Notes under the pieces: model-generated
What the model was told of the DNA's origin: nothing
Database searches by the model: none
Seen by the model: only the letters and a program-made list of their open reading frames with translations
Assembly (NCBI GenBank): GCA_964016885.1
Contig: OZ024740.1
Span: 111,476,001 to 111,540,000 of the forward strand
Origin: Eledone cirrhosa
Taxonomy: Eukaryota
Direction of reading: 5' to 3'
Length of the DNA stretch: 64,000 bases
Shown: positions 23,760 through 64,000 of the stretch, one piece after another
Numbering within the stretch: position 1 is the first letter of the stretch
Layout of the letters: each line of letters starts with the position of its first letter
Made by a program: the position numbers and the translations under genes

Positions 23760-25140
23760 TTTAGAATGTTTAATTAGGTTTATAGTACTTAAAAGTTTTT
23801 CATATACGGTGATTACAATCTACAATCAGTTCCTGTCTTTTATTCAATAAGTCGTCCTTAGATTTAGTAATTTCCAAGATCTCCGCGGGACATAATCTGC
23901 ATTCTCTCCTGTTCCCAAGATATGGAGTTCTTTGCAGAATGGTATCCCACGATAGCTTGAAATCTATTTTTTTTCTTTTTATAATTATTTAGTGCTTCAG
24001 CTAAAGATGTGGCGTTAGCTAGTTTAGTATTGTTAAAGCTACTGGAGTGTGCGTAATATCTTTTCTTAAATGTGTTCGATGTAGATCCTATATATGATTC
24101 GTTGGAGTCAGTAGTAGACACAGTGCATTTATATATTACATTATTAATCAAACAGTTGCCATTTAAGGGGCAAACGCTTCTATTTCTACAATTACAACCA
24201 TACGTAAGATGGTTGTTGGGGGTACCTACATAATTCTCATTAATCCTTGAGCTATTCTTATTGTAATTAATGTTAGAGAGAAAATGAGTGCTGCTTTGTG
24301 GGTGATTTGGTGCTGGGGTTGTATTGTGATTTTGTGTTGTTTTGTTGTATTGGTGATTTGGGTGGTTGAGTTTACCAGGTTGAAGGATTGTATTATTTGT
24401 CCTTTTAAAAGGTGCAGTCTTATTTAAATTATGTTGTGGTGGTGTGGTCATATTATTTTTTAATTTATAAATGTTGTAGTTGCTTATTTTTTGCTGGAGA
24501 TTGTTTGATGTAGAGTATGAGAATTTAACAGTATACCTGTTAAATATTTGGAGGTATCTGTGGTTTGGTGGAAAGGGTTTATGTAGAATTTCGAAGAATT
24601 TGGGGGGAATTTGTCCAATAGTTTGCAGGTTGAAGGTTGCGTTGTACCACGTTATGTTTCTTTTGCGGTTTTTAGTTAAGTTCTTATTCCCACTTATATT
24701 AATGTGCTGTGTTCTAAAAGAGTTCTTAGGGTTAGTATTTTTGTTTGTGGAATTCGGTAAATTGCTGTGGTTGTATTTGGTGTTATTATTGGGTAGATTA
24801 TGAGAGGTTGAATGTTTGGTAGTCATATGTGAGTTGTTAACATTGGTCATAGATCGTGTAGTAATAATTGTTGTGGTTCTTCGGTTGTTTTGTGTGATAG
24901 GAATGACCCCATTAGGCATTTGTTTCGATGGTATTTTTTGGTGTTTGTAGTTTTTGGTAGGTTTTGTAGTATGGTCCATAGTAGTGTTGGGGATATATGA
25001 CATTTTTTCTTTATATCCACTTCTAGTTAGGGCCTCGTTGTGGAAGGGTGCATTTTTATAAAATATTTCCTCATTGGAAGATAATTTAGAAAGTCTAAGA
25101 GATATACTCAGTTTTTGAGTATAGAGCCAGGGTGGTTAGA
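23760..25140 (-). mobile_element. Penelope-like element 3' part (thumb/linker + GIY-YIG), probably Hydra clade
   Basis: ORF 23864-25003: RKRNITWYN...FPPNHRYLQIFNRYTVKFSYS, CNCRNRSVCPLNGNCL (CxCx5C), VIYKCTV...YIGSTSNTFKKRYYAH; long N/T/H/K-rich low-complexity linkers. Confidence 0.88.
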
Positions 25141-26688: not shown

Positions 26689-27171
<483 letters not shown>

Positions 27172-27199
27172 TATTGCAAATACCAAAACAAAAACAAAA

Positions 27200-28725
27200 A
27201 CAAGGGATCGACACTTCAAATTCATCTTATTCACTGTATACAAATGGATATTGCTAATTACTACTCCTCAATTACCTCTAATTTACTTAATAAGGCACTT
27301 ATTTATGCTTCAAAATATACGGACTTATCTAGTGAAGAAATAAATATCATTTTAACCGCACGCAAAACCCTAATTGAATTTAATAACCATCTCTGGACAA
27401 GGGCTGACAGACAGAACAATTTCAACATCACAATGGGATCATCTGACTCAGCTCAAGTAACAGACCTCGTTGGAATATTTATTCTTAATGTACTACATAG
27501 AAAAATGCCGGAGATGGCCGGAGGTTTATATCGCGGCGATATGTTACTTATAGTCGAAAACCATAGCAATAGCGAACTTAATATGAAAAAGAAATCTATC
27601 ATAGAATTTTTCCATAATTACAACCTTAAATTAGAAATTGAGAATAATAATAAAACTGTTAAACTTTAAACCGTAGCTCAGGTCTATATTACCCTTTCCA
27701 TAAGATTAATGAAAACCTAAACTACGTAAGCTTCCATTCTACCCATCCTAGAAATGTAAAACGTACTATTGTCAATAGCGTCCAGCAACGAATTTCCCTC
27801 ATTTCAACCAATAAGAATATTTTTGATAACAAGGCAGAATATTACAATGATGCGTTACATAGAGCTGGCTACACGAGTAAAATTAAATACTTAGATAATA
27901 ATAACATGCAAAATCACCCTAAAATTCACTATAATAATAATAATAATAAGCAATTTAAAATAAATAGTAAATCAAGCAAAAGAACTAGAACTAGAAATAT
28001 TATTTGGTACTCTCCCCCATTCTCGATAGACGTTAAAACACCTGTAGCAAACCTATTTTTCAAAGCAGTAGATAAGTGTTTTCCTAGATCTCATAGATAC
28101 CATTCTATTTTTAACAGACATACTATTAAGCTATCTTAATCTACTACGATGGACATGGCACAAAATATAAATAGAATTAATAATAGAAACTTAAATTTAA
28201 ACCCAAACTAAATAAACCAAGATAACAATATTAATATTACTAATAACAGTATCAATACTAATAATAATCGTACCGTTCATAGTAACAATAACTCTGGAAA
28301 ATGTAACTGTAGAGACGATTCAAATTTCCCTTTACAGAATAATTGCCTAGATAAAAACTTAGTATACAAATGCACAGTAAAAACTAGAGATAAAATATAT
28401 AACTATATTGGAGCCAACTCTACAAAATTTAAAGAACGCTGGTATAATCACAAACAAACTTTTAATAGATCCGATAAAAATTTTCTACAAAACTTTCACA
28501 TCTAATTTGGTACTTAAAAGACAATATTGACTATTCAATCTCTTGGGGAACGATTTCGAAAGCGCCCGCATACCGAAATATGGCTCTCTCAAGAATTTGT
28601 CATTTGTGTATTGAAGAAATATTTTATATACTTACCTGCCAAAACTCTATTATCAAAAAGAAAGAATTATTCAATTCTTGTAGACATCGCCAAAGAATGA
28701 CTTTCAGAAGTATCTTTAATCTATA
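27200..28725 (+). mobile_element. Penelope-like element (RT + GIY-YIG), probably Hydra clade, decayed
   Basis: MDIANYYSSIT...FNITMGSSDSAQVTDLVG...GGLYRGDMLL; RNIIWYSPPFS...FPRSHRYHSIFNRHTIKLS; CNCRDDSNFPLQNNCL, LVYKCTV...YIGANSTKFKERWYNH (~28300-28450). Confidence 0.9.
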
Positions 28726-33702: not shown

Positions 33703-35745
33703 CACTACTTTTGTTTTGCCTAAAAGTATCATAAGCCGCTTATTCATAAAATATGGCTTTTCAGGTGAGCCATCATTTGTTTTAAGATCTTCCAAGACAG
33801 TGTATCTACTGCCATGTCATACACATCGAAGAAGAGCGACGCTATGAAGTAGGTACCAATAACAATTATTATCATTGGAACCAGATGAAAGTTGAGCTGT
33901 ATAACATCAATATATTCTTTTATTCTATTATTATATTTTTGATAAAATATGAAATAAGAGAAAAAGACAGCAGCACACACAATCATAAGTTGATTCATTA
34001 GAAGAACAAAGCTGGTTGAGTTGTTAACGATGACAGTCCTAAAAATATTATGCACTAACAATGAGAAGGCGTCTTTGGCAGAGGTATAAAAGTTTTTGCC
34101 ATGAACAGCAATCATTATGTAAGCATTCTTGTTCATGAATTTCAAGAATACTTCAAAACACCAGAAGCAGCATTTCATACATTTCAGCACATATTTAGCA
34201 AATGGATTTTCAACATTCTCTAGTTTGCGCCCAAGAAAATCCAAAAATATTCGAATCATCTTAACAAGAGCAATAATCAGGGAACCATACGCCAAGGAAC
34301 CTAAATGATATCGTAAACATCTCCAAAATGCCTTTAAGAGAGGGAAGCTCGGAATGTCTTCAGGTTTGTCAAAAGCCCAATAATAAGAAGCAAATGCTCC
34401 AGCCAAAGTTAGTTGAGCCATTGCAGATACGAAATTCCTTAACCAGAAGAACATAAAAAAGGCATAGAATTGAAGATAAATTGTGTATGACTCCATACTT
34501 TTCATGAAATAACAGATATTAATTTGTTTGGTTGTTGTATTTTTGCACAATCCAAGTGTTTCCATAGTATTTTCAATATGATCGCTGGTAGAATTCAAGT
34601 TAAGCTCGACTGATTTGTAAATGCTATAAAGATGAATTGTTATTGCAAGCCACAAGTAGATAATACCAGTTTGTAAGATGAACGGAATAATTGGCCATAT
34701 CAATGTAGACTTAATATGGCCAACAGCTCTGCTTCCTTCTTTGATCAATTCTATTGCAATCTTAATACGAGACATGAGTATCAGAAATATAAATAGGAAA
34801 ATAGTAAATATAATTCCAGTAATGATACATATCCATAAATACAATATTGCTTTGTTAAATGTATACGGAAGTGGATTCAATACAAAAGTGATGCTCTCAC
34901 CAGATTCCTTCGCAATCGTATACTTCCAAAGAGACAGTCCACAACCCATAGCAAGTAAGCCCAAGAAAGTAATCATCCCGTACCATATTATCACACCTGC
35001 CACCCATCGCATTATAATTATCAACACTTGGCAAGCACATGTTGCAATAAGCAAACAAATTAAGATTATCCACCAGGACACCAAAATATCACTTATTAGT
35101 TGTTCTGCATAAGCCTTGGTTTTAAGTATACCCTCGATATTAATTGCTGCTCTTCTCAGCTCATCGTTTTTCACGGTTTTAATTTGAATGTTGCTACCAA
35201 TTTCAATAATATCAGGAACACATCTCTTTATGATTTCTATGGACTTAACTATATATTGGGGCAATCATTTATACCTTGTTCTGTGCAATATTGTTCTGGG
35301 GAAGATTGTGTTTCCGTAGGACACTGTTTAACACAAATCTGTGGTGTGAGACATCCGATTAGAAAGCTGAGAGGGGAATACATCGTGTGATATCTGAGAA
35401 AAAAAGATTAGTTTTATTCTTCATGATACCATATCCACATAAATTATTCTCAGAATCCATAGGGTAAAGTAGAAGAGTGTAGTTTCCTTTGACAAAGGCA
35501 AAAATGGCAACACCAGCAAAACCCAAAAGAAAGAGGAAGAACATCAGGCAGAATATGATGTCGGTACATGACCTGTCTGTGACAGGTCCTGGAAGCGGTA
35601 ACTCAGATTCATCAAATTCATCAAATTCATCAAACTCATCAAACTCATCAAATTCATCGAACGATTCCTCTTCTTCGTCACTTGGTTCTTCACTGTTATC
35701 AAGGTCATCAAGCGGTTCCTCTTCTTCGTCATTTATAGTTGCCAT
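33470..35745 (-). pseudogene. Intronless choline transporter-like protein (SLC44/CTL, CTL2/4-like) retrocopy with frameshifts
   Basis: Family motifs RSCTDIIFC, YPMDSENNLCG, CLTPQICVKQCP, LAGAFASYYWAFDKPEDIP, RYHLGSLAYGSLII, CCFWCFEVFLKFMNKNAYIMIAVHGKNFYTSAKDAF, VYDMAVDTL..LED...NDGSPEKPYFM are collinear without introns. Frame breaks at ~35362, ~35260 and ~33797. Confidence 0.88.
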
Positions 35746-35859
35746 CCCATTAAGTTTATAGCTTCAAAGTTTGTATTCTATTTCGTTTTAATTACCCGAC
35801 TTAAAATGTTTTCTTTCTCCTTGTTCCAGTTTATTTTTATAGTAGTAGTAGAGGGTCGA

Positions 35860-36184: not shown

Positions 36185-36364
<180 letters not shown>

Positions 36365-36418
36365 CGTTTCTGAATTTGTTTAGCAAGATTCTTTATCTGA
36401 AATCGTGTGTTGAAACCG

Positions 36419-36600
36419 ATATTGTTATACTTTGGGAGGGTCATGTTGCCAATAAGAAACACACGCACCAGTTGCTTTCACTTCAATTTATTATATATTT
36501 ATAAATTTATAAATTTATAAATATATAATAAATTGAAGTGAAATCAACTGGTGCGTGTGTTTCTTATTGGCAACATGACCCTCCCAAAGTATAACAATAT
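36419..36600. repeat. 182-bp near-perfect spacerless palindrome in (TA)n context
   Basis: Centre at 36509/36510. The arm start attgttatactttgggagggtcat is related to 8041-8064 and 61246-61262. Confidence 0.93.
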
Positions 36601-37388
36601 ATATATATATCAAACGCGAAACAGGACTCTAGATTTTTATTATGCATGCATTAGAACTGCTCGGCGTGCTAAATGACGTAATTGCATCGCGTTTACTCTG
36701 TTTGCGATATCATTCAAGTAGCACCTTTCTGTCTTTCTCTACCTGAATGCAATATTTGCCTGTCAATTTTTTTAAAAATATTTATTTCTATTTCCACGGA
36801 TGGTTATATGTCTCAGTTTCAGATCCCATAAAAGGCTGAATGCAGAAATTCTTTCTTGAATTTTTAATTTGTGCAAATATACATACCCGATATTCATAAT
36901 ACTCAGCAAAAGGCGGGGTGTATATAATACAATCAATCACAAGTAAACTATACACCTATTCGCTCTTAGTATTATTCTGAAATGTAAATTATCTTCTGAT
37001 GAGGAGTCAATAAAATCCAAAAATCGATGAAAGATGTTTATCATTTGTACAGTTTACTAGCAAATTCGTATTTTCTGGCATGTTTTCATGCCTACATAAT
37101 ATTTATGTGAATATATTTATACACATTGGTGCAATCTTGGTTACAAACTCTGTATTTATGCAGATATAACTTTATTATGCACTTCGGCTGTTAGCGCACC
37201 TATTACTATATATCTTAATAACAATTCCAATGAGAGAGCTAATTAGATTCAGATTAGTAAGTCCATTTTATCTTTTTAGAATAATATTAAGAGTGGATAG
37301 GTCTATATGCTCAACAAATACATGTTTCCTAAAATATACACCGTTCAAACATACATACTCGTACATACACACATCTACATATCTAAAC

Positions 37389-55535: not shown

Positions 55536-55598
<63 letters not shown>

Positions 55599-55720
55599 AA
55601 TATAGACATAGAATATTCGAAAATATTCTGTATGTTTATAATAAACATTTTGAAGACCTAATCGCTATAGAATAGAATACGTCACGTATTACAATTAGAT
55701 TCTCGATAAAAGCAAGGGAA

Positions 55721-55763
55721 GTAATCTACGCGTTTCATTCTTATTAGAAATCTTCAGGACTAC
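55721..55763 (-). ncRNA. Type I minimal hammerhead (also at 56031-56073 and 56341-56383)
   Basis: Reverse complement of gtagtc CTGAAGA tttct-aata-agaat GAAA cgcg TA gattac. Confidence 0.88.
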
Positions 55764-56822
55764 ATATCCAGTGCTTTTATCGAGAATGACACAGCTAGAG
55801 ACTTGTAGAATACTTAGCTGTGTACAGGAACTGGTTTGAAAGAGCGGTTGCCGGTCCGGCAGAAATTAGAAATTGGAATAAATGCTCTGAAATAGCGATA
55901 TATATGTGAATATAGACATAGAATATTCGAAAATATTCTGTATGTTTATAATAAACATTTTGAAGACCTAATCGCTATAGAATAGAATACGTCACGTATT
56001 ACAATTAGATTCTCGATAAAAGCAAGGGAAGTAATCTACGCGTTTCATTCTTATTAGAAATCTTCAGGACTACATATCCAGTGCTTTTATCGAGAATGAC
56101 ACAGCTAGAGACTTGTAGAATACTTAGCTGTGTACAGGAACTGGTTTGAAAGAGCGGTTGCCGGTCCGGCAGAAATTAGAAATTGGAATAAATGCTCTGA
56201 AATAGCGATATATATGTGAATATAGACATAGAATATTCGAAAATATTCTGTATGTTTATAATAAACATTTTGAAGACCTAATCGCTATAGAATAGAATAC
56301 GTCACGTATTACAATTAGATTCTCGATAAAAGCAAGGGAAGTAATCTACGCGTTTCATTCTTATTAGAAATCTTCAGGACTACATATCCAGTGCTTTTAT
56401 CGAGAATGACACAGCTAGAGACTTGTAGAATACTTAGCTGTGTACAGGAACTGGTTTGAAAGAGCGGTTGCCGGTCCGGCAGAAATTAGAAATTGAAATA
56501 AATGCTCTGAAATAGCGATATATATGTGAATATAGTCATAGAATATTCGAAAATATTCTGTATGTTTATAATAAAATCTAATTGTAATACGTGACGTATT
56601 CTATTCTATAGCGATTAGGTCTTCAAAATGTTTATTATAAACATACAGAATATTTTCGAATATTCTATGTCTATATTCACATATATATCGCTATTTCAGA
56701 GCATTTATTCCAATTTCTAATTTCTGCCGGACCGGCAACCGCTCTTTCAAACCAGTTCCTGTACACAGCTAAGTATTCTACAAGTCTCTAGCTGTGTCAT
56801 TCTCGATAAAAGCACTGGATAT

Positions 56823-56865
56823 GTAGTCCTGAAGATTTCTAATAAGAATGAAACGCGTAGATTAC
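56823..56865 (+). ncRNA. Type I minimal hammerhead (also at 57133-57175, 57443-57485, 57753-57795 and 58063-58105)
   Basis: Stem I gtagtc/gattac, core CUGAAGA...GAAA, stem II ttct/agaa, palindromic stem III ACGCGU, predicted GUA cleavage after 56859. Stem I is extended by a perfect 16-bp helix attctcgataaaagca/tgcttttatcgagaat. Confidence 0.9.
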
Positions 56866-58258
56866 TTCCCTTGCTTTTATCGAGAATCTAATTGTAATAC
56901 GTGACGTATTCTATTCTATAGCGATTAGGTCTTCAAAATGTTTATTATAAACATACAGAATATTTTCGAATATTCTATGTCTATATTCACATATATATCG
57001 CTATTTCAGAGCATTTATTCCAATTTCTAATTTCTGCCGGACCGGCAACCGCTCTTTCAAACCAGTTCCTGTACACAGCTAAGTATTCTACAAGTCTCTA
57101 GCTGTGTCATTCTCGATAAAAGCACTGGATATGTAGTCCTGAAGATTTCTAATAAGAATGAAACGCGTAGATTACTTCCCTTGCTTTTATCGAGAATCTA
57201 ATTGTAATACGTGACGTATTCTATTCTATAGCGATTAGGTCTTCAAAATGTTTATTATAAACATACAGAATATTTTCGAATATTCTATGTCTATATTCAC
57301 ATATATATCGCTATTTCAGAGCATTTATTCCAATTTCTAATTTCTGCCGGACCGGCAACCGCTCTTTCAAACCAGTTCCTGTACACAGCTAAGTATTCTA
57401 CAAGTCTCTAGCTGTGTCATTCTCGATAAAAGCACTGGATATGTAGTCCTGAAGATTTCTAATAAGAATGAAACGCGTAGATTACTTCCCTTGCTTTTAT
57501 CGAGAATCTAATTGTAATACGTGACGTATTCTATTCTATAGCGATTAGGTCTTCAAAATGTTTATTATAAACATACAGAATATTTTCGAATATTCTATGT
57601 CTATATTCACATATATATCGCTATTTCAGAGCATTTATTCCAATTTCTAATTTCTGCCGGACCGGCAACCGCTCTTTCAAACCAGTTCCTGTACACAGCT
57701 AAGTATTCTACAAGTCTCTAGCTGTGTCATTCTCGATAAAAGCACTGGATATGTAGTCCTGAAGATTTCTAATAAGAATGAAACGCGTAGATTACTTCCC
57801 TTGCTTTTATCGAGAATCTAATTGTAATACGTGACGTATTCTATTCTATAGCGATTAGGTCTTCAAAATGTTTATTATAAACATACAGAATATTTTCGAA
57901 TATTCTATGTCTATATTCACATATATATCGCTATTTCAGAGCATTTATTCCAATTTCTAATTTCTGCCGGACCGGCAACCGCTCTTTCAAACCAGTTCCT
58001 GTACACAGCTAAGTATTCTACAAGTCTCTAGCTGTGTCATTCTCGATAAAAGCACTGGATATGTAGTCCTGAAGATTTCTAATAAGAATGAAACGCGTAG
58101 ATTACTTCCCTTGCTTTTATCGAGAATCTAATTGTAATACGTGACGTATTCTATTCTATAGCGATTAGGTCTTCAAAATGTTTATTATAAACATACAGAA
58201 TATTTTCGAATATTCTATGTCTATATTCACATATATATCGCTATTTCAGAGCATTTAT

Positions 58259-58315
<57 letters not shown>

Positions 58316-58319
58316 AAAA

Positions 58320-58804
58320 TTAAAATTGGTGCTCTGAAATAGCGATATATATATATATGAATGTATATATAGTGTATTTTGCAATACACTGTAGGCTTAA
58401 TTAAAAGCATTTCGAAGACCTTACGTTATTGTTTTAGAGTAGTGACAGTCTCACTTACTTTAATTTTCAGCAAACAGGGGAGATAAATCTGACAGAGCTC
58501 TGTTTCGCACTTTTTGGTGCTTATCAAAGCTAACTGCTCCGCCTATTTGCTGAAAATAATGAATGTTTGATTCTTATAGAATTCTAGTAATAATCAGGAA
58601 CTGATTATACAGAGCGGTTGCCGGTCAAGTAGTTAGCTTTGATAAGCACCAAAAAGTGCGAAACTGAGCTCTGTCAGATGTATCTCCCCTGTTTGCTGAA
58701 AATTAAAGTAAGTGAGACTGTCACTACTCTAAAACAGTAGCGTAAGGTCTTCGAAATGCTTTTAATTAAGCATACAGTGTATTGCAAAATACACTATATA
58801 TACA

Positions 58805-58808
<4 letters not shown>
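58320..58808. repeat. Fold-back monomer of a related hammerhead-bearing family (arms 58358-58537 / 58629-58808)
   Basis: Shares gctctgaaatagcgatatata, gaagacct and caggaactg..agagcggttgccggtc with the 310-bp unit. Hammerhead-like motifs at 58487-58532 (-) and 58634-58680 (+). Confidence 0.85.
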
Positions 58809-58873
<65 letters not shown>

Positions 58874-58878
<5 letters not shown>

Positions 58879-59235
58879 GTTGAAAAGGTAACACACTAGA
58901 GAGAGATAGAGCGCCATCAATGAAACAGGGAAAAACCACCTGTGTATGGAATCTATAATCTATGAAAGGCAGGGTAGACACACTATAATTAAAAATATAA
59001 ATTAAAGTCTATATACAAACCTCTATAACTATATATCACACACGTACAAATCCATGGATTTGTACGTGTGTGTTATATAGTTATAGAGGTTTGTATATAG
59101 ACTTTAATTTATATTTTTAATTATAGTGTGTCTACCCTGGCTTTCATAGATTATAGATTCCATACACAGATGGTTTTTCCCTGTTTTATTGATGGCGCAT
59201 TATCTCTCTCTAGTGTGTTACCTTTTCAATATATT
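58874..59235. repeat. 362-bp spacerless near-perfect palindrome
   Basis: Centre tcca|tgga at 59054/59055; starts directly after (TA)n. Confidence 0.95.
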
Positions 59236-59565
59236 GTATTTTAAAGAGCTCAGGATTCCTTCTCCTTTGAACACATTATTGACAGGGAATAGCGAGAGTC
59301 TATGGTTCCGTTAATTTATCGTGATATATATATATATATAGTAATAATAATAAATGTGAAGACTAAAATCCGAAGAGGGCTCGATAAGGATAATATATAA
59401 AAGGAACGATCGACATTCGTCAAATCGGACGGAGGAAACAATGTTTCCATTGGTCTTTCCAATTGCTAATATAATCAATCGATCGCAACCCCAGGTAGAA
59501 GGAGAAACGTGATATAAATATCTTGCTCAAGGACATAACGCATCACCCGGTCCGGGAAAGGATAA

Positions 59566-61040: not shown

Positions 61041-61369
61041 TATATATATATATAATAAAAAAAAACCGTAGAGCAAATATTCATTAAAATAACAGATTAA
61101 AGTTCATTTTAATATATATATATTTATATATATATAACAAAGGAGGTGTGGAATCAGATGGACCATAAGACCATAAATAGCAGTCGAAACGGCTTGAGCT
61201 CTGCCGTCGGTGTCAAACTATTTCCTATATATATATATATATATATACTTGGGGAGGGTCATATTTGTGTAATAATATTGCCAGAATTAATAACAGAACA
61301 CCCTCACTGTTTGGTTGGTTTTCGCTTCTGTGTCTTTTATATCGGTTAATTTAATTTATTCGGTCCCCA

Positions 61370-64000
61370 ATGTTGCCATTGACTGACCAACGGTCAAAAA
61401 GTGGTAATAATAGAAATAATATATGTAGCAACATTAAAGACCGGTATACTAAGAGACAGAGCAGACCAGGGGTCCAACAACTTGGGAGGAAATCTGTAGA
61501 AAGCTTGGTTAGCCTCAATCAGCGCACAAGGGATGATGAGGTAGTATGTCTACCCACGGATAAGTCTGGTAGGATGTCAATAGACAGCATGCCGAACTAC
61601 ATCAAGGCTATGCAACCCCAGATCACCAACACGAGCGAAATTGCGCAGCAAATACATGATGGGAGAGAGAAAATCCTCAACGCTCACATGATGATGTGGA
61701 CCGACATCCTAAAGCCAAGCATAGGCACTGCCAACAACTTCCAGGCGTCCAACAATGGCATACCGCCCTTGTATGGGCTCTGCAAAGACCACAAAACAGT
61801 CGACGACCCGACAACAGGACCACCAACAAGACCTGTATGCGGAGCAAATATAGCTAGCAACTACAAGATCTCCTACTTCATCTCAATGGTTATACGCCCC
61901 ATAATCAAGATGTCCCCAGATGTATGTGACAGTACATAGGTCCTCCTCATCAGAATCAGTGAGTGCAACAAAAACAGGAACCTATCCAACTGCATAATAG
62001 GCAGTATGTATGTGGTATCACTGTACCCATCCATTAACATTGATTTTGCTGTGGAAAAATGTGTGGAGATGATCATTGAGAGTGAAGTGGAGTTCTGCAA
62101 CGTCAACACAGACGAACTGGGCCTCCTACTTAGACTTAGCTACGACACTGACTACCTAGACAGCCATGACCTTAGACGTTTCTGCCCTAGTAGACCCATA
62201 AGAGGTAGACCTCCCCACCATAACCTCAGTGGCAAAAAAACTCCCATGGGAAGGTGGATTGGGTGGACAAAAGCTATACGGACCCCCCAAAACAATGATC
62301 AGGTAAGAAAAATGGTCGCACATGCAATAGGGGCTAGTATCAAAACTACCCTAAAGGGCCACATATTCAAATTCAACGAGAAGATTTACAATCAAAACGA
62401 GGGACCAGCCATTGGTGTCAGCATAGCTGGTGACGTTGCGAACCATTTTATGGTATGGTGCGAAAGGAGATTCAAATATCTCCTTGATGAGAGCTCTATA
62501 GACCTCATCATGTACTCACGTTACGTATACGACATCAATATAGTAATAAGGACATCCCCACAAGAGAGCACTAACAAGTTTAATTTAGAACGTAGCACAA
62601 TGGAAAGCATCCAGCAGATAGCTAATTCCATACACCAGAGTATAACTGTAACTATCGACTACCCTTCCAAACACCCTAACAATAGACTACCTGTATTAGA
62701 CACGGACTAACTCTGGATTAACGCTATAGACAAGAGAGCCGAATTTCTCCACTCAAACTATGCTAAATCCATGGCCTCCTAATACCTGATACACAAAAAC
62801 TCAGCAATATCCAGTAGTGCTAAATTTAATATTCTAATCTCAGACTTGGTACGAGTGATGAAGAACGTGTCCCGCATGTGCGACCCAACAGAAATGGAAA
62901 GATACATCCTACACTACATCAACCGCATGCAGTTCTCTGGCTACAACCAAAGAGACAGAATCAGAGTATACGAAGGAGCCTAGGAGAATTATAATACCTT
63001 CATAGAAATGGATATGAAAGGAATTTGCCCATTATACAGGAGCAAATCATGGAATAGCTTAGATAGGACTAGACATAAGATAGGGAAAGCCACCTCCTGG
63101 AACGACAACCAGAGATACCAGAGTGTCATGTTTGTGGACGCTACCCCTGGAGGGAAATTAGCTAACCAGTGTAGAAAGGCCCTGAGAAAGACCCACTTAA
63201 AGATTAAGGTGGTAGAAAAGCCAGGAACCACCATAAAATCCCTGATCAGCAAAACCTACCCTTTTAAGAAAACCCACTGTACTAATAGGAAATGTATCAT
63301 AGGTAGAGTAAACCCCCGGATAAACTGTAAAACTAGAAACGTAGTCTATAGCATAAGATGTACAGAGGGTACTTGCAGAAACATGACAACAACATACATA
63401 GGCGAGACAGCTCGTAGCATAGTTGAAAGGATAGACCAACACTGGGGGGAACTAAAAGGACGAAAAAACGGTTTAGTACTATACGAACATGCTAGACAAC
63501 AACACAACGGTAATATAGACAACATAGAAATTAGAATAATATCTAAACATAGAAATGACCCAGCAGATAGGCAAATCAGAGAGGCCAGCGTAATAGAACT
63601 TAGAAGGCCAATGCTAAACAGAAAAAATGAATTGAATAACAACACCCAAACAAACAACACTGACCCAAGAGAAGTAGAAATAAATAAATAAATAAATAAA
63701 TAAATACACAAGCACAATAACAACGAACACATATAAACACACACTAGTAAACTAAGATAGAATACATTAACCAATACACAGTCACCCAAACAAGAACACA
63801 CATGAAACAAAACACTATACACACACGCAAACGCATGCACAGAGAAGACATAAAAAATAAATAAATAAAATAACCAAATAAATAAATAAATAAACAGACT
63901 AAATATAGATGGCGTAAGCATACAATGCAACGGGAGGAAACATAATAGCAACACTGACGATGTTGCAGATGTACAACGAAAGAACTTTGATAGACTATAT
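61370..64000 (+). mobile_element. Penelope-like element (Neptune-like; RT + Cys-linker + GIY-YIG), decayed
   Basis: PTDKSGR, PPLYGLCKDHK, PPTRPVCG, VVSLYPSI, YNQNEGPAIGVSIAG, RYVYDI, RLPVLD; C...C...NCKTRNVVYSIRC...TC...YIGETARS...H...RQIREA...PMLN. Confidence 0.92.

What the first reader, a model, noticed from the sequence alone, without database searches (positions are those of the whole stretch)
58320..58808. Sister family next door: same scaffold, different hammerhead with compensatory U3-A8 core
Seen: a diverged relative of the 310-bp unit keeps the module order (hairpin, gaagacct, long helix ttcagcaaacagg/cctatttgctgaa enclosing the ribozyme, agagcggttgccggtc). Its ribozyme reads TTGATAA gcac-caaaaa-gtgc GAAA cagagctctg TC, with a 12-nt palindromic stem III ACAGAGCTCTGT and a GUC triplet; stem I is weak. 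It is also arranged as a divergent fold-back between (TA)n tracts. Structure conserved despite sequence turnover argues for functional RNA, and agagcggttgccggtc may be a cis-signal (inference).
Basis: partly seen in the sequence, partly recalled or inferred. Interest (0 to 1): 0.75.

Follow-up and report, generated by a model that had tools for sequence, protein, structure and literature searches.

The report
Penelope-borne retrozyme with twice-swapped hammerhead core
This is a likely disabled copy of an abundant small jumping repeat whose predicted self-cutting RNA keeps its shape through many paired mutations, including a core base-pair swap inferred to have arisen twice, and whose insertion ends suggest copying by a Penelope-type retrotransposon.

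Summary
The element (family B, 319-320 bp unit) belongs to a genome-wide clan of hammerhead repeats that includes the neighbouring 310-bp family A; the shared 16-mer occurs 18,504 times (control 0). Across 23 hand-picked members, 15 of 26 predicted pairs show double changes. The C3-G8/U3-A8 pair is Watson-Crick in 95 of 100 listed ribozymes and needs two switches on a tree (AU p=0.005). U3-A8 itself is published. The weak stem I is a private change in this copy (39 of 42 copies read AGCU). Insertions have the Penelope-like element (PLE) footprint: 3' ends in (TA)n (29 of 30), inverted 5' arms (21 of 30), two end sites about 30 nt apart. The 16-mer is absent from the PLE copies checked. It is predicted to pair with a second conserved block around those end sites, and in 3 of 6 representatives (A and C, not B) this region best matches the tail of an intact Neptune/Nematis-type PLE. 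Cleavage, expression and circularity are untested. The scan noted U3-A8 ~320-bp repeats elsewhere in this genome before. Verdict: a variant of animal non-LTR retrozymes.

The parts
58316..58628 (-). Full-length family B unit in ribozyme sense; its 3' end carries the tail and faces the left microsatellite
58628..58808 (+). Inverted, 5'-truncated second arm; 2-nt microhomology at the junction; ends in the internal TA run with no tail
   Evidence: and the sequence
58487..58531 (-). Type I hammerhead: stem I AGCU/AGAU (private change at 58488), core UUGAUAA 58527-58521, stem II GCAC/GUGC, palindromic stem III 58503-58492, C17 at 58491
58635..58679 (+). Second hammerhead copy with the same private stem I change and an extra A>T at 58665 in stem III
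58464..58556 (-). Long helix enclosing the ribozyme (arms 58464-58478 and 58542-58556); 8 of 13 pairs show double changes across the clan
58611..58626 (-). Shared 16-mer (RNA sense GACCGGCAACCGCUCU): predicted 3' arm of a GAC-loop hairpin plus the GCUCU strand of an outer helix
58330..58345 (-). Second conserved block UCGCUAUUUCAGAGCA; its AGAGC is predicted to pair with GCUCU; insertion ends fall just before it and 25-33 nt after its CGCU
58414..58421 (-). AGGUCUUC block (gaagacct on +), shared by A and B; C has a one-base variant
58371..58390 (-). 3' hairpin (AGUGUAUU/AAUACACU)
58263..58315 (.). (AT)n(GT)n tract shared with the 3' end of the family A array
58795..58872 (.). (TA)n tract at the 3' end of the right arm
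55588..58264 (.). Neighbouring family A array (310 bp, C3-G8 core, CGCG stem III) in two divergent arms; its full-length units are identical
61226..63983 (+). 5'-truncated, broken copy of the candidate partner, a Neptune/Nematis-type PLE (PLE-N), with an inverted pLTR piece at 61226-61423 and its own minimal hammerhead near 63950

Best explanation
The locus is a two-armed insertion of a non-coding 319-bp hammerhead repeat (a non-LTR retrozyme subfamily), likely copied into (TA)n by a Penelope-like retrotransposon and likely unable to act as a source itself. SHOWN from sequence: the clan, the covariation, the U3-A8 state in two separate lineages on the tree, the two-site 3' ends in microsatellite, the partial tandems and inverted arms, and this copy's private lesions. 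INFERRED: (1) source loci with two or more same-strand units are transcribed and cut at GUC into monomers; (2) monomers are probably circularised, by analogy with coral, mussel and axolotl retrozymes; (3) a PLE protein binds a predicted structure in which AGAGC pairs with GCUCU of the 16-mer and closes an AU-rich loop plus a GAC-loop hairpin; (4) its GIY-YIG nuclease cuts (TA)n on both strands and reverse transcription starts internally at two sites about 30 nt apart, some 140-170 nt downstream of the cleavage site; (5) the two cDNAs join at their 5' ends, giving the divergent fold-back with a tail on one side. The best partner candidate is the Neptune/Nematis-type PLE-N lineage (about 35% likely). 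This copy has one ribozyme per strand, so it could not release a monomer.
For: Exact counts in G000: 16-mer 18,504, control 0; A-specific 16,659; B-specific 1,552; second block 24,605. Covariation in 23 members: 94.1% of cells paired against 37-52% for slid controls; 15 of 26 pairs with double changes; the 3-8 pair is CG in 13 and UA in 10 with no mismatch. The ribozyme pattern has 4,699 hits against 25 for the control; my hand tally of the first 100 is 59 CG, 36 UA, 3 CA, 2 UG. On the B background (518 hits, first 100 tallied by hand): 97 UA and 0 CG at 3-8; stem II pair 2 is UA 56, CG 43, mismatch 1. A tree of 40 rows with positions 3 and 8 masked needs 2 changes and rejects one U3-A8 clade at p-AU 0.005. 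B loci: microsatellite at the 3' end in 29 of 30, inverted arm in 21 of 30; C loci: 25 of 30 and 15 of 30. Of 43 B ends, 18 fall in the internal TA run, 24 at +25 to +33 and 1 at +44; 17 further junctions read through into a tandem unit. Opposite arms of one locus share non-majority bases at 20 of 3,584 sites, against 332 of 252,945 between loci. This anatomy is the PLE hallmark in PMC8557442, and two internal start sites define the tail in PMC11167929. Intact 1,217-aa PLE-N copies end in (TA)n at discrete sites.
Against: There are no cleavage, expression or circle data. Rfam hammerhead models are not reached. No PLE checked carries the 16-mer. The tail-region match to PLE-N is not significant on score alone (74, 25 and 46 of 200 shuffles reach the best score for A, B and C; a profile search finds nothing). 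It is top-ranked by position only for A and two C copies (0, 0 and 2 of 804 windows as good), not for B, G or D (266, 195 and 257 of 804), and I first saw it by eye. The predicted AGAGC/GCUCU helix is nearly invariant, so covariation cannot confirm it, and the local fold is no better than shuffles (z -0.4 to +1.2). The end tally is biased: loci were the best hits to a query that stops at the conserved block, and only ends downstream of an anchor were counted. The second U3-A8 lineage rests on 2 rows, and recombination between subfamilies could mimic a second origin. In PAc, ribozyme cleavage is not needed for insertion in vitro. Eight of nine Xenopus retrozyme dimers did not cleave in vitro.
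Confidence: 0.85

Rival explanations
1. Same PLE-driven mobilisation, but the template is an uncut or partly cut linear multimeric transcript; circles are not intermediates and the ribozyme is selected for another step, such as release from read-through RNA.
For: PAc uses unprocessed RNA and tolerates ribozyme mutants in vitro. Most B and C insertions span about 1-3 units including the inverted arm, which a linear dimer or trimer could supply.
Against: Full-length family A units within one insertion are identical and its arrays reach 13-15 units, which fits repeated passes round one template. Related retrozymes accumulate as circles.
Confidence: 0.3
2. The unit is the pLTR of an autonomous PLE that I did not find, and these loci are ordinary 5'-truncated PLE ends.
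For: The insertion anatomy is the same as that of PLE ends. Retrozymes were reported as pLTR relatives in Xenopus. Only three PLE families were searched genome-wide.
Against: Upstream of a unit lies another unit, an inverted arm or flank. The PLE pieces within 150 bp of 4 of 30 B loci are pLTR or tail sequence of their own families. No ORF of 120 aa or more overlaps the element.
Confidence: 0.08
3. A DNA-level satellite or MITE-like fold-back whose hairpins come from template switching, with the hammerhead a relic or a chance pattern.
For: The genome is rich in fold-backs, including an unrelated one next door. Rfam is sub-threshold.
Against: The 3-8 tertiary pair and stem II covary in several subfamilies, which DNA palindrome repair would not maintain. 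The ends are polar: fixed 3', variable 5'.
Confidence: 0.03
4. This particular locus is a host-exapted functional RNA.
For: The core and the long helix are still intact on the - strand.
Against: The arms differ at 6 of about 198 positions, as for family-wide decay (2.8% between arms). The active fold lies 11.1 kcal/mol above the minimum, against 2.6-2.9 for six other B copies.
Confidence: 0.02

Closest known systems
Metazoan non-LTR retrozymes (Cervera and de la Pena 2020, PMC7229834, parts 2-4 of 6 read; Li, Clavereau and Pollet 2026, 10.64898/2026.07.22.740005, parts 1-3 of 5 read, supplements closed)
   Same: Non-coding unit in the 150-450 bp range, one type I hammerhead per unit, tandem and dispersed copies, co-existence with PLEs; the stable circular fold is predicted here.
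   Different: U3-A8 core and a 4-bp stem III that could form in a monomer. Two-armed inverted insertions with a one-sided tail in (TA)n are not described for retrozymes in the parts read. No significant homology to the pLTRs checked, unlike the Xenopus families. Circles are not shown here.
U3-A8 hammerheads: natural variants (Perreault et al. 2011, PMC3088659, passages read) and Schistosoma Cercyon PLE minimal hammerheads (PMC4209133, parts 1-2 of 4 read)
   Same: The same compensated core swap; PMC3088659 states that such covariants were shown active in vitro (its ref. 32, which I did not read).
   Different: Here it sits in a full-size retrozyme hammerhead, with C3-G8 sister subfamilies in the same genome and two inferred origins.
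Insertions of endonuclease-positive PLEs (Craig et al. 2021, PMC8557442, passages read) and internal RT initiation by PAc (Frangieh et al. 2024, PMC11167929, parts 1-2 of 4 read)
   Same: Partial tandem, inverted 5'-truncated copy, 30-40 bp tail at one end, (TA)n target, two start sites.
   Different: No ORF. The PAc start signal lies in the first 172 nt of the ORF; here a non-coding stem is the candidate signal.

Membership tests
Type I hammerhead ribozyme | Core (C3/U3)UGAN(G8/A8)A...GAAA...UH with a Watson-Crick 3-8 pair | tested here: met
   (38 of 42 B copies read UUGAUAA)
Type I hammerhead ribozyme | Three helices round the core, stem I open | tested here: met
   stem I 94.5%, stem II 86.8%, stem III 100% of cells paired; stem I is damaged in this copy
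Type I hammerhead ribozyme | Score above a curated Rfam hammerhead threshold | tested here: not met
   HH9 23.1 bits against 52
Type I hammerhead ribozyme | Loop 1-loop 2 tertiary contact | not tested
   An internal loop in stem I is predicted; contacts were not modelled
Type I hammerhead ribozyme | Self-cleavage at GUC | not testable with these tools
   needs an assay
Non-LTR retrozyme | 150-450 bp non-coding unit with one type I hammerhead, in tandem and dispersed copies | tested here: met
   Family level. This locus itself has no same-strand tandem
Non-LTR retrozyme | No protein-coding ORF | tested here: met
   no ORF of 120 aa or more overlaps the element
Non-LTR retrozyme | Expressed as linear and circular monomer RNA | not testable with these tools
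   no RNA holder listed
Non-LTR retrozyme | Target-site duplication longer than 4 bp when present | tested here: inconclusive
   Flanks are microsatellite
PLE-type insertion | 5' truncation with a partial tandem and an inverted 5' copy | tested here: met
   21 of 30 B and 15 of 30 C loci inverted
PLE-type insertion | Two 3' end sites 30-40 nt apart (tail) and (TA)n target | tested here: met
   with the sampling bias stated
pLTR of an autonomous PLE | Unit lies directly downstream of an RT/GIY-YIG ORF or matches a known pLTR | tested here: not met
   limited to three PLE families searched genome-wide and the loci fetched

The most novel reading that the evidence does not exclude
The clan is a long-lived parasite of one Neptune/Nematis-type PLE lineage that carries a degenerate RNA mimic of the PLE's ORF-start tail. 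The 16-mer and the UCGCUAUUUCAGAGCA block form the stem that sets where reverse transcription starts on a circular RNA. The ribozyme core switched C3-G8 to U3-A8 twice, in B perhaps to weaken an inhibitory AGCU(C/U)UG-CAGAGCU pairing. This would name both the partner enzyme and the cis-signal of an animal retrozyme.
Probability: 0.3. Interest if true: 0.7.

Novelty: new variant of a known kind. Interest (0 to 1): 0.45.

Why it matters
How animal retrozymes are reverse-transcribed and inserted is proposed but not shown in the papers read (PMC7229834 names PLEs as strong candidates; the 2026 preprint offers co-occurrence and pLTR similarity). This clan supplies a PLE-type footprint, an intact candidate enzyme, a candidate start signal that can be mutated in the published PAc-type assay, and a natural series of hammerheads with swapped core pairs and stem III palindromes of different length. 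The window copy itself is ordinary debris of that process.

Tried and rejected
Expression: no RNA holder listed. The two runs laid are contigs of unrecorded kind from one sample; they show that the repeat and the family base at 58488 exist in public data, and nothing about RNA. Rfam: no hammerhead at threshold. Pfam found no family for five PLE fragments, so the labels 'Neptune/Nematis-type' and 'Hydra-like' rest on motifs I read against PMC8557442, not on a tree. Exact 16-mer or block search in PLEs was negative. A clan junction profile found nothing in PLE-N, N2 or Hydra-like loci (best E 0.17). The lead from earlier notes that such repeats share a start signal with Hydra-type PLEs was not reproduced for this clan in that search. 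A direct B-to-N2 junction at L003 looks like a template switch but is equally explained by a later N2 insertion with a small deletion, so it is not counted as support. The idea that B arrays are short because a monomer-competent stem III reopens the circle is not supported: in my hand tallies of the first 100 hits, A gave 18 clusters and B about 86, but this is confounded with age (median pairwise divergence A 1.2%, B 2.8%, C 6.7%, from biased samples). No convincing Pol III A/B boxes by eye (consensus recalled, no scan run). Rows left out of the tree: three with chimeric or duplicate ends (L045_1180, L196_1391, L031_1202). Literature searches: 'retrozyme' plus 'octopus' and 'retrozyme, hammerhead, cephalopod' (the taxon was my guess from repeat content) listed no description of this clan; 'hammerhead U3-A8' gave one paper and 'U3A8' none; the search for a retrozyme start signal listed nothing relevant. 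One paper on dimeric PLE hammerheads that I recalled is not held. Supplements of PMC7229834 and PMC8557442 were not opened and those of the preprint are closed; they may list related sequences.

Full report
Observation. The region 58316-58808 is a head-to-head fold-back with 194-nt arms at 97% complementarity, between (AT)n(GT)n and (TA)n tracts. The left arm is a full unit whose ribozyme-sense strand is minus; the right arm is a 5'-truncated copy on plus. Both 3' ends face outward. The unit aligns with the neighbouring 310-bp family A at 208 of 330 columns, far above shuffles. A strict hammerhead descriptor hits the left arm once and 30 shuffled windows once in all. Rfam gives only a sub-threshold HH9 hit on each arm.

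Family. A DNA search of the 3.0-Gb genome G000 gave 1,074 candidates, of which 40 were scored, mostly at 94-97% identity. Exact counts: shared 16-mer 18,504, A-specific 24-mer 16,659, B-specific 20-mer 1,552, second shared block 24,605, all with control 0. The B monomer is 319-320 bp. In 42 aligned B copies the core reads UUGAUAA in 38 and stem I reads AGCU/AGCU in 39; both window arms share a private AGAU. The 'weak stem I' is therefore a lesion of this insertion. Its active fold is predicted 11.1 kcal/mol above the minimum, against 2.6-2.9 for six other B copies. With one ribozyme per strand the locus could not release a monomer (inference).

Clan and covariation. A third family, C (314 bp, C3-G8, 75% identical to B), turned up beside a PLE, and further subfamilies followed: D and E with U3-A8, G with CUGAGGA, and older, distant forms. 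A pattern for the clan's ribozyme has 4,699 hits against 25 for the control; the first 100, tallied by hand, are 59 C3-G8, 36 U3-A8, 3 C-A and 2 U-G (a few rows belong to distant or other families). On the B background, 97 of the first 100 of 518 hits are U3-A8, and stem II pair 2 is U-A in 56, C-G in 43 and mismatched in 1. In 23 members chosen for diversity, 94.1% of cells pair, 15 of 26 pairs show double changes and slid controls pair at 37-52%; the shuffle control ignores relatedness. RNAalifold, given no structure, recovers the long helix and stems II and III but not stem I. A 40-row tree with positions 3 and 8 masked and rooted on A needs two changes, in all 200 bootstrap trees, and rejects one U3-A8 clade at p-AU 0.005. 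The second lineage has only two rows, and recombination could mimic it. U3-A8 is known in nature (PMC3088659, passages; PMC4209133).

Insertion anatomy. Among the 30 best B loci, 29 have microsatellite at the 3' end and 21 have an inverted arm; for C the figures are 25 and 15 of 30. Of 43 B ends counted downstream of an anchor, 18 lie in the internal TA run, 24 at +25 to +33 from the CGCU of the conserved block and 1 at +44; 17 more junctions run on into a tandem unit. The block lies 143 nt, and the main end 169 nt, downstream of the cleavage site, so copying starts inside the monomer (inference; the sample is biased toward complete 3' ends). Opposite arms of one locus share rare bases about four times as often as copies from different loci (20 of 3,584 against 332 of 252,945 sites, mostly from two loci), consistent with one template or with conversion between arms. 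Partial tandems, an inverted 5' copy, a one-sided 30-40 bp tail and (TA)n bias are the described PLE hallmarks (PMC8557442, passages). Two internal start sites produce the tail in the PAc system (PMC11167929).

The 16-mer. In RNA sense it lies about 15-30 nt past the main end site. Its 5' half is the 3' arm of a short hairpin with a GAC loop (41 of 43 junctions; the fifth pair is broken in B), and its GCUCU is predicted to pair with AGAGC of the other block, closing a loop that contains the tail end sites (pair probability 0.8 in A, 0.48 and 0 in two B copies, 0.98 in C). The helix is almost invariant and the local fold does not beat shuffles, so this is a prediction. It would explain why these two blocks are the best conserved parts of A, B and C.

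Partner. The genome holds a young PLE family (PLE-N) with open frames of 1,217 aa, a C-terminal GIY-YIG domain, a CX4CxxC linker, its own minimal hammerhead and ends in (TA)n at about +24, +65 and +81 of the ORF; 408 ORF-start matches were counted (control 8). A broken copy lies 2.4 kb from the finding. Neither PLE-N, the related N2, nor the Hydra-like family searched carries the 16-mer. However, the clan's end region aligns in register with the PLE-N tail: 37 of 67 identical columns for A and 39 of 65 for C, better than all 804 other windows of the PLE-N unit, and the reverse comparison also peaks at the tail block for A and C. For B, G and D the match is unremarkable, raw scores are not significant against shuffles, and A scores higher at an antisense site. 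I rate PLE-N as the partner at about 35%. PLE ends lie within 150 bp of 4 of 30 B loci, which shared targeting can explain.

Mechanism. Shown: clan, covariation, polar two-site ends, fold-back, decay of this copy. Inferred: transcription of tandem sources, cleavage at GUC, circularisation (by analogy with PMC7229834), binding of a PLE protein to the stem, two-strand nicking of (TA)n, and two outward-ended cDNAs joined by microhomology. A side hypothesis: B is predicted to prefer an inactive AGCUUUG-CAGAGCU pairing by 2.9 kcal/mol, and a C3-G8 core would widen the gap to 5.6, so U3-A8 may relieve a folding trap. This does not account for lineage D.

Comparison and novelty. It works like, and meets the sequence-testable criteria of, a metazoan non-LTR retrozyme; cleavage and circles are untested. 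It fails the pLTR test within the families checked. Searches of the held library found no description of this clan; subscription papers and unread supplements may hold one. Earlier notes of this scan describe family A many times and U3-A8 ~320-bp repeats at other loci with the same reading. They are AI notes, not independent evidence, and my reading was fixed before I opened them.

Noticed in passing
window 58870-59239: A separate near-perfect fold-back (185-nt arms, 96%) shares the right (TA)n tract; it matched no other fetched locus and showed no hammerhead in my descriptor scans.
   Followed up: partly
window 61226-63983; L152-L157: Young Neptune/Nematis-type PLE family with intact 1,217-aa frames elsewhere in the genome, a minimal hammerhead, a GTAAGT donor-like site after a short upstream ATG, and tandem full-length copies.
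   Followed up: partly
L003:1845-2160: An inverted B arm is joined directly, with no TA tract, to the pLTR of PLE family N2: a template switch or a later insertion.
   Followed up: partly
window 36364-36610: The Rfam MIR4208-like hairpin hit is the fold-back end of a PLE of family N2, not a microRNA.
   Followed up: yes
window 23864-25135 (-) and 27160-28720 (+): Two decayed Hydra-like PLE copies with a CxCX5C-type linker.
   Followed up: partly
L204, L207-L211: Old hammerhead repeats (stem III ACAG..CUGU) that resemble the clan downstream of the ribozyme by eye, suggesting a much older lineage.
   Followed up: partly
L205, L206, L212: Another hammerhead family (CUGAUGA UUUCUC..GAAU GAAA) with a stem II like family A, ending soon after in (TA)n.
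   Followed up: no
window 33744-35264 (-): Uninterrupted 506-aa frame matching the choline transporter family PF04515, with a likely upstream part at 35359-35763; possibly a retrocopy or an intron-poor gene.
   Followed up: no
L212: Two near-identical multi-unit G-subfamily fold-backs in inverted orientation 2.9 kb apart, each followed by the same second hammerhead element.
   Followed up: no
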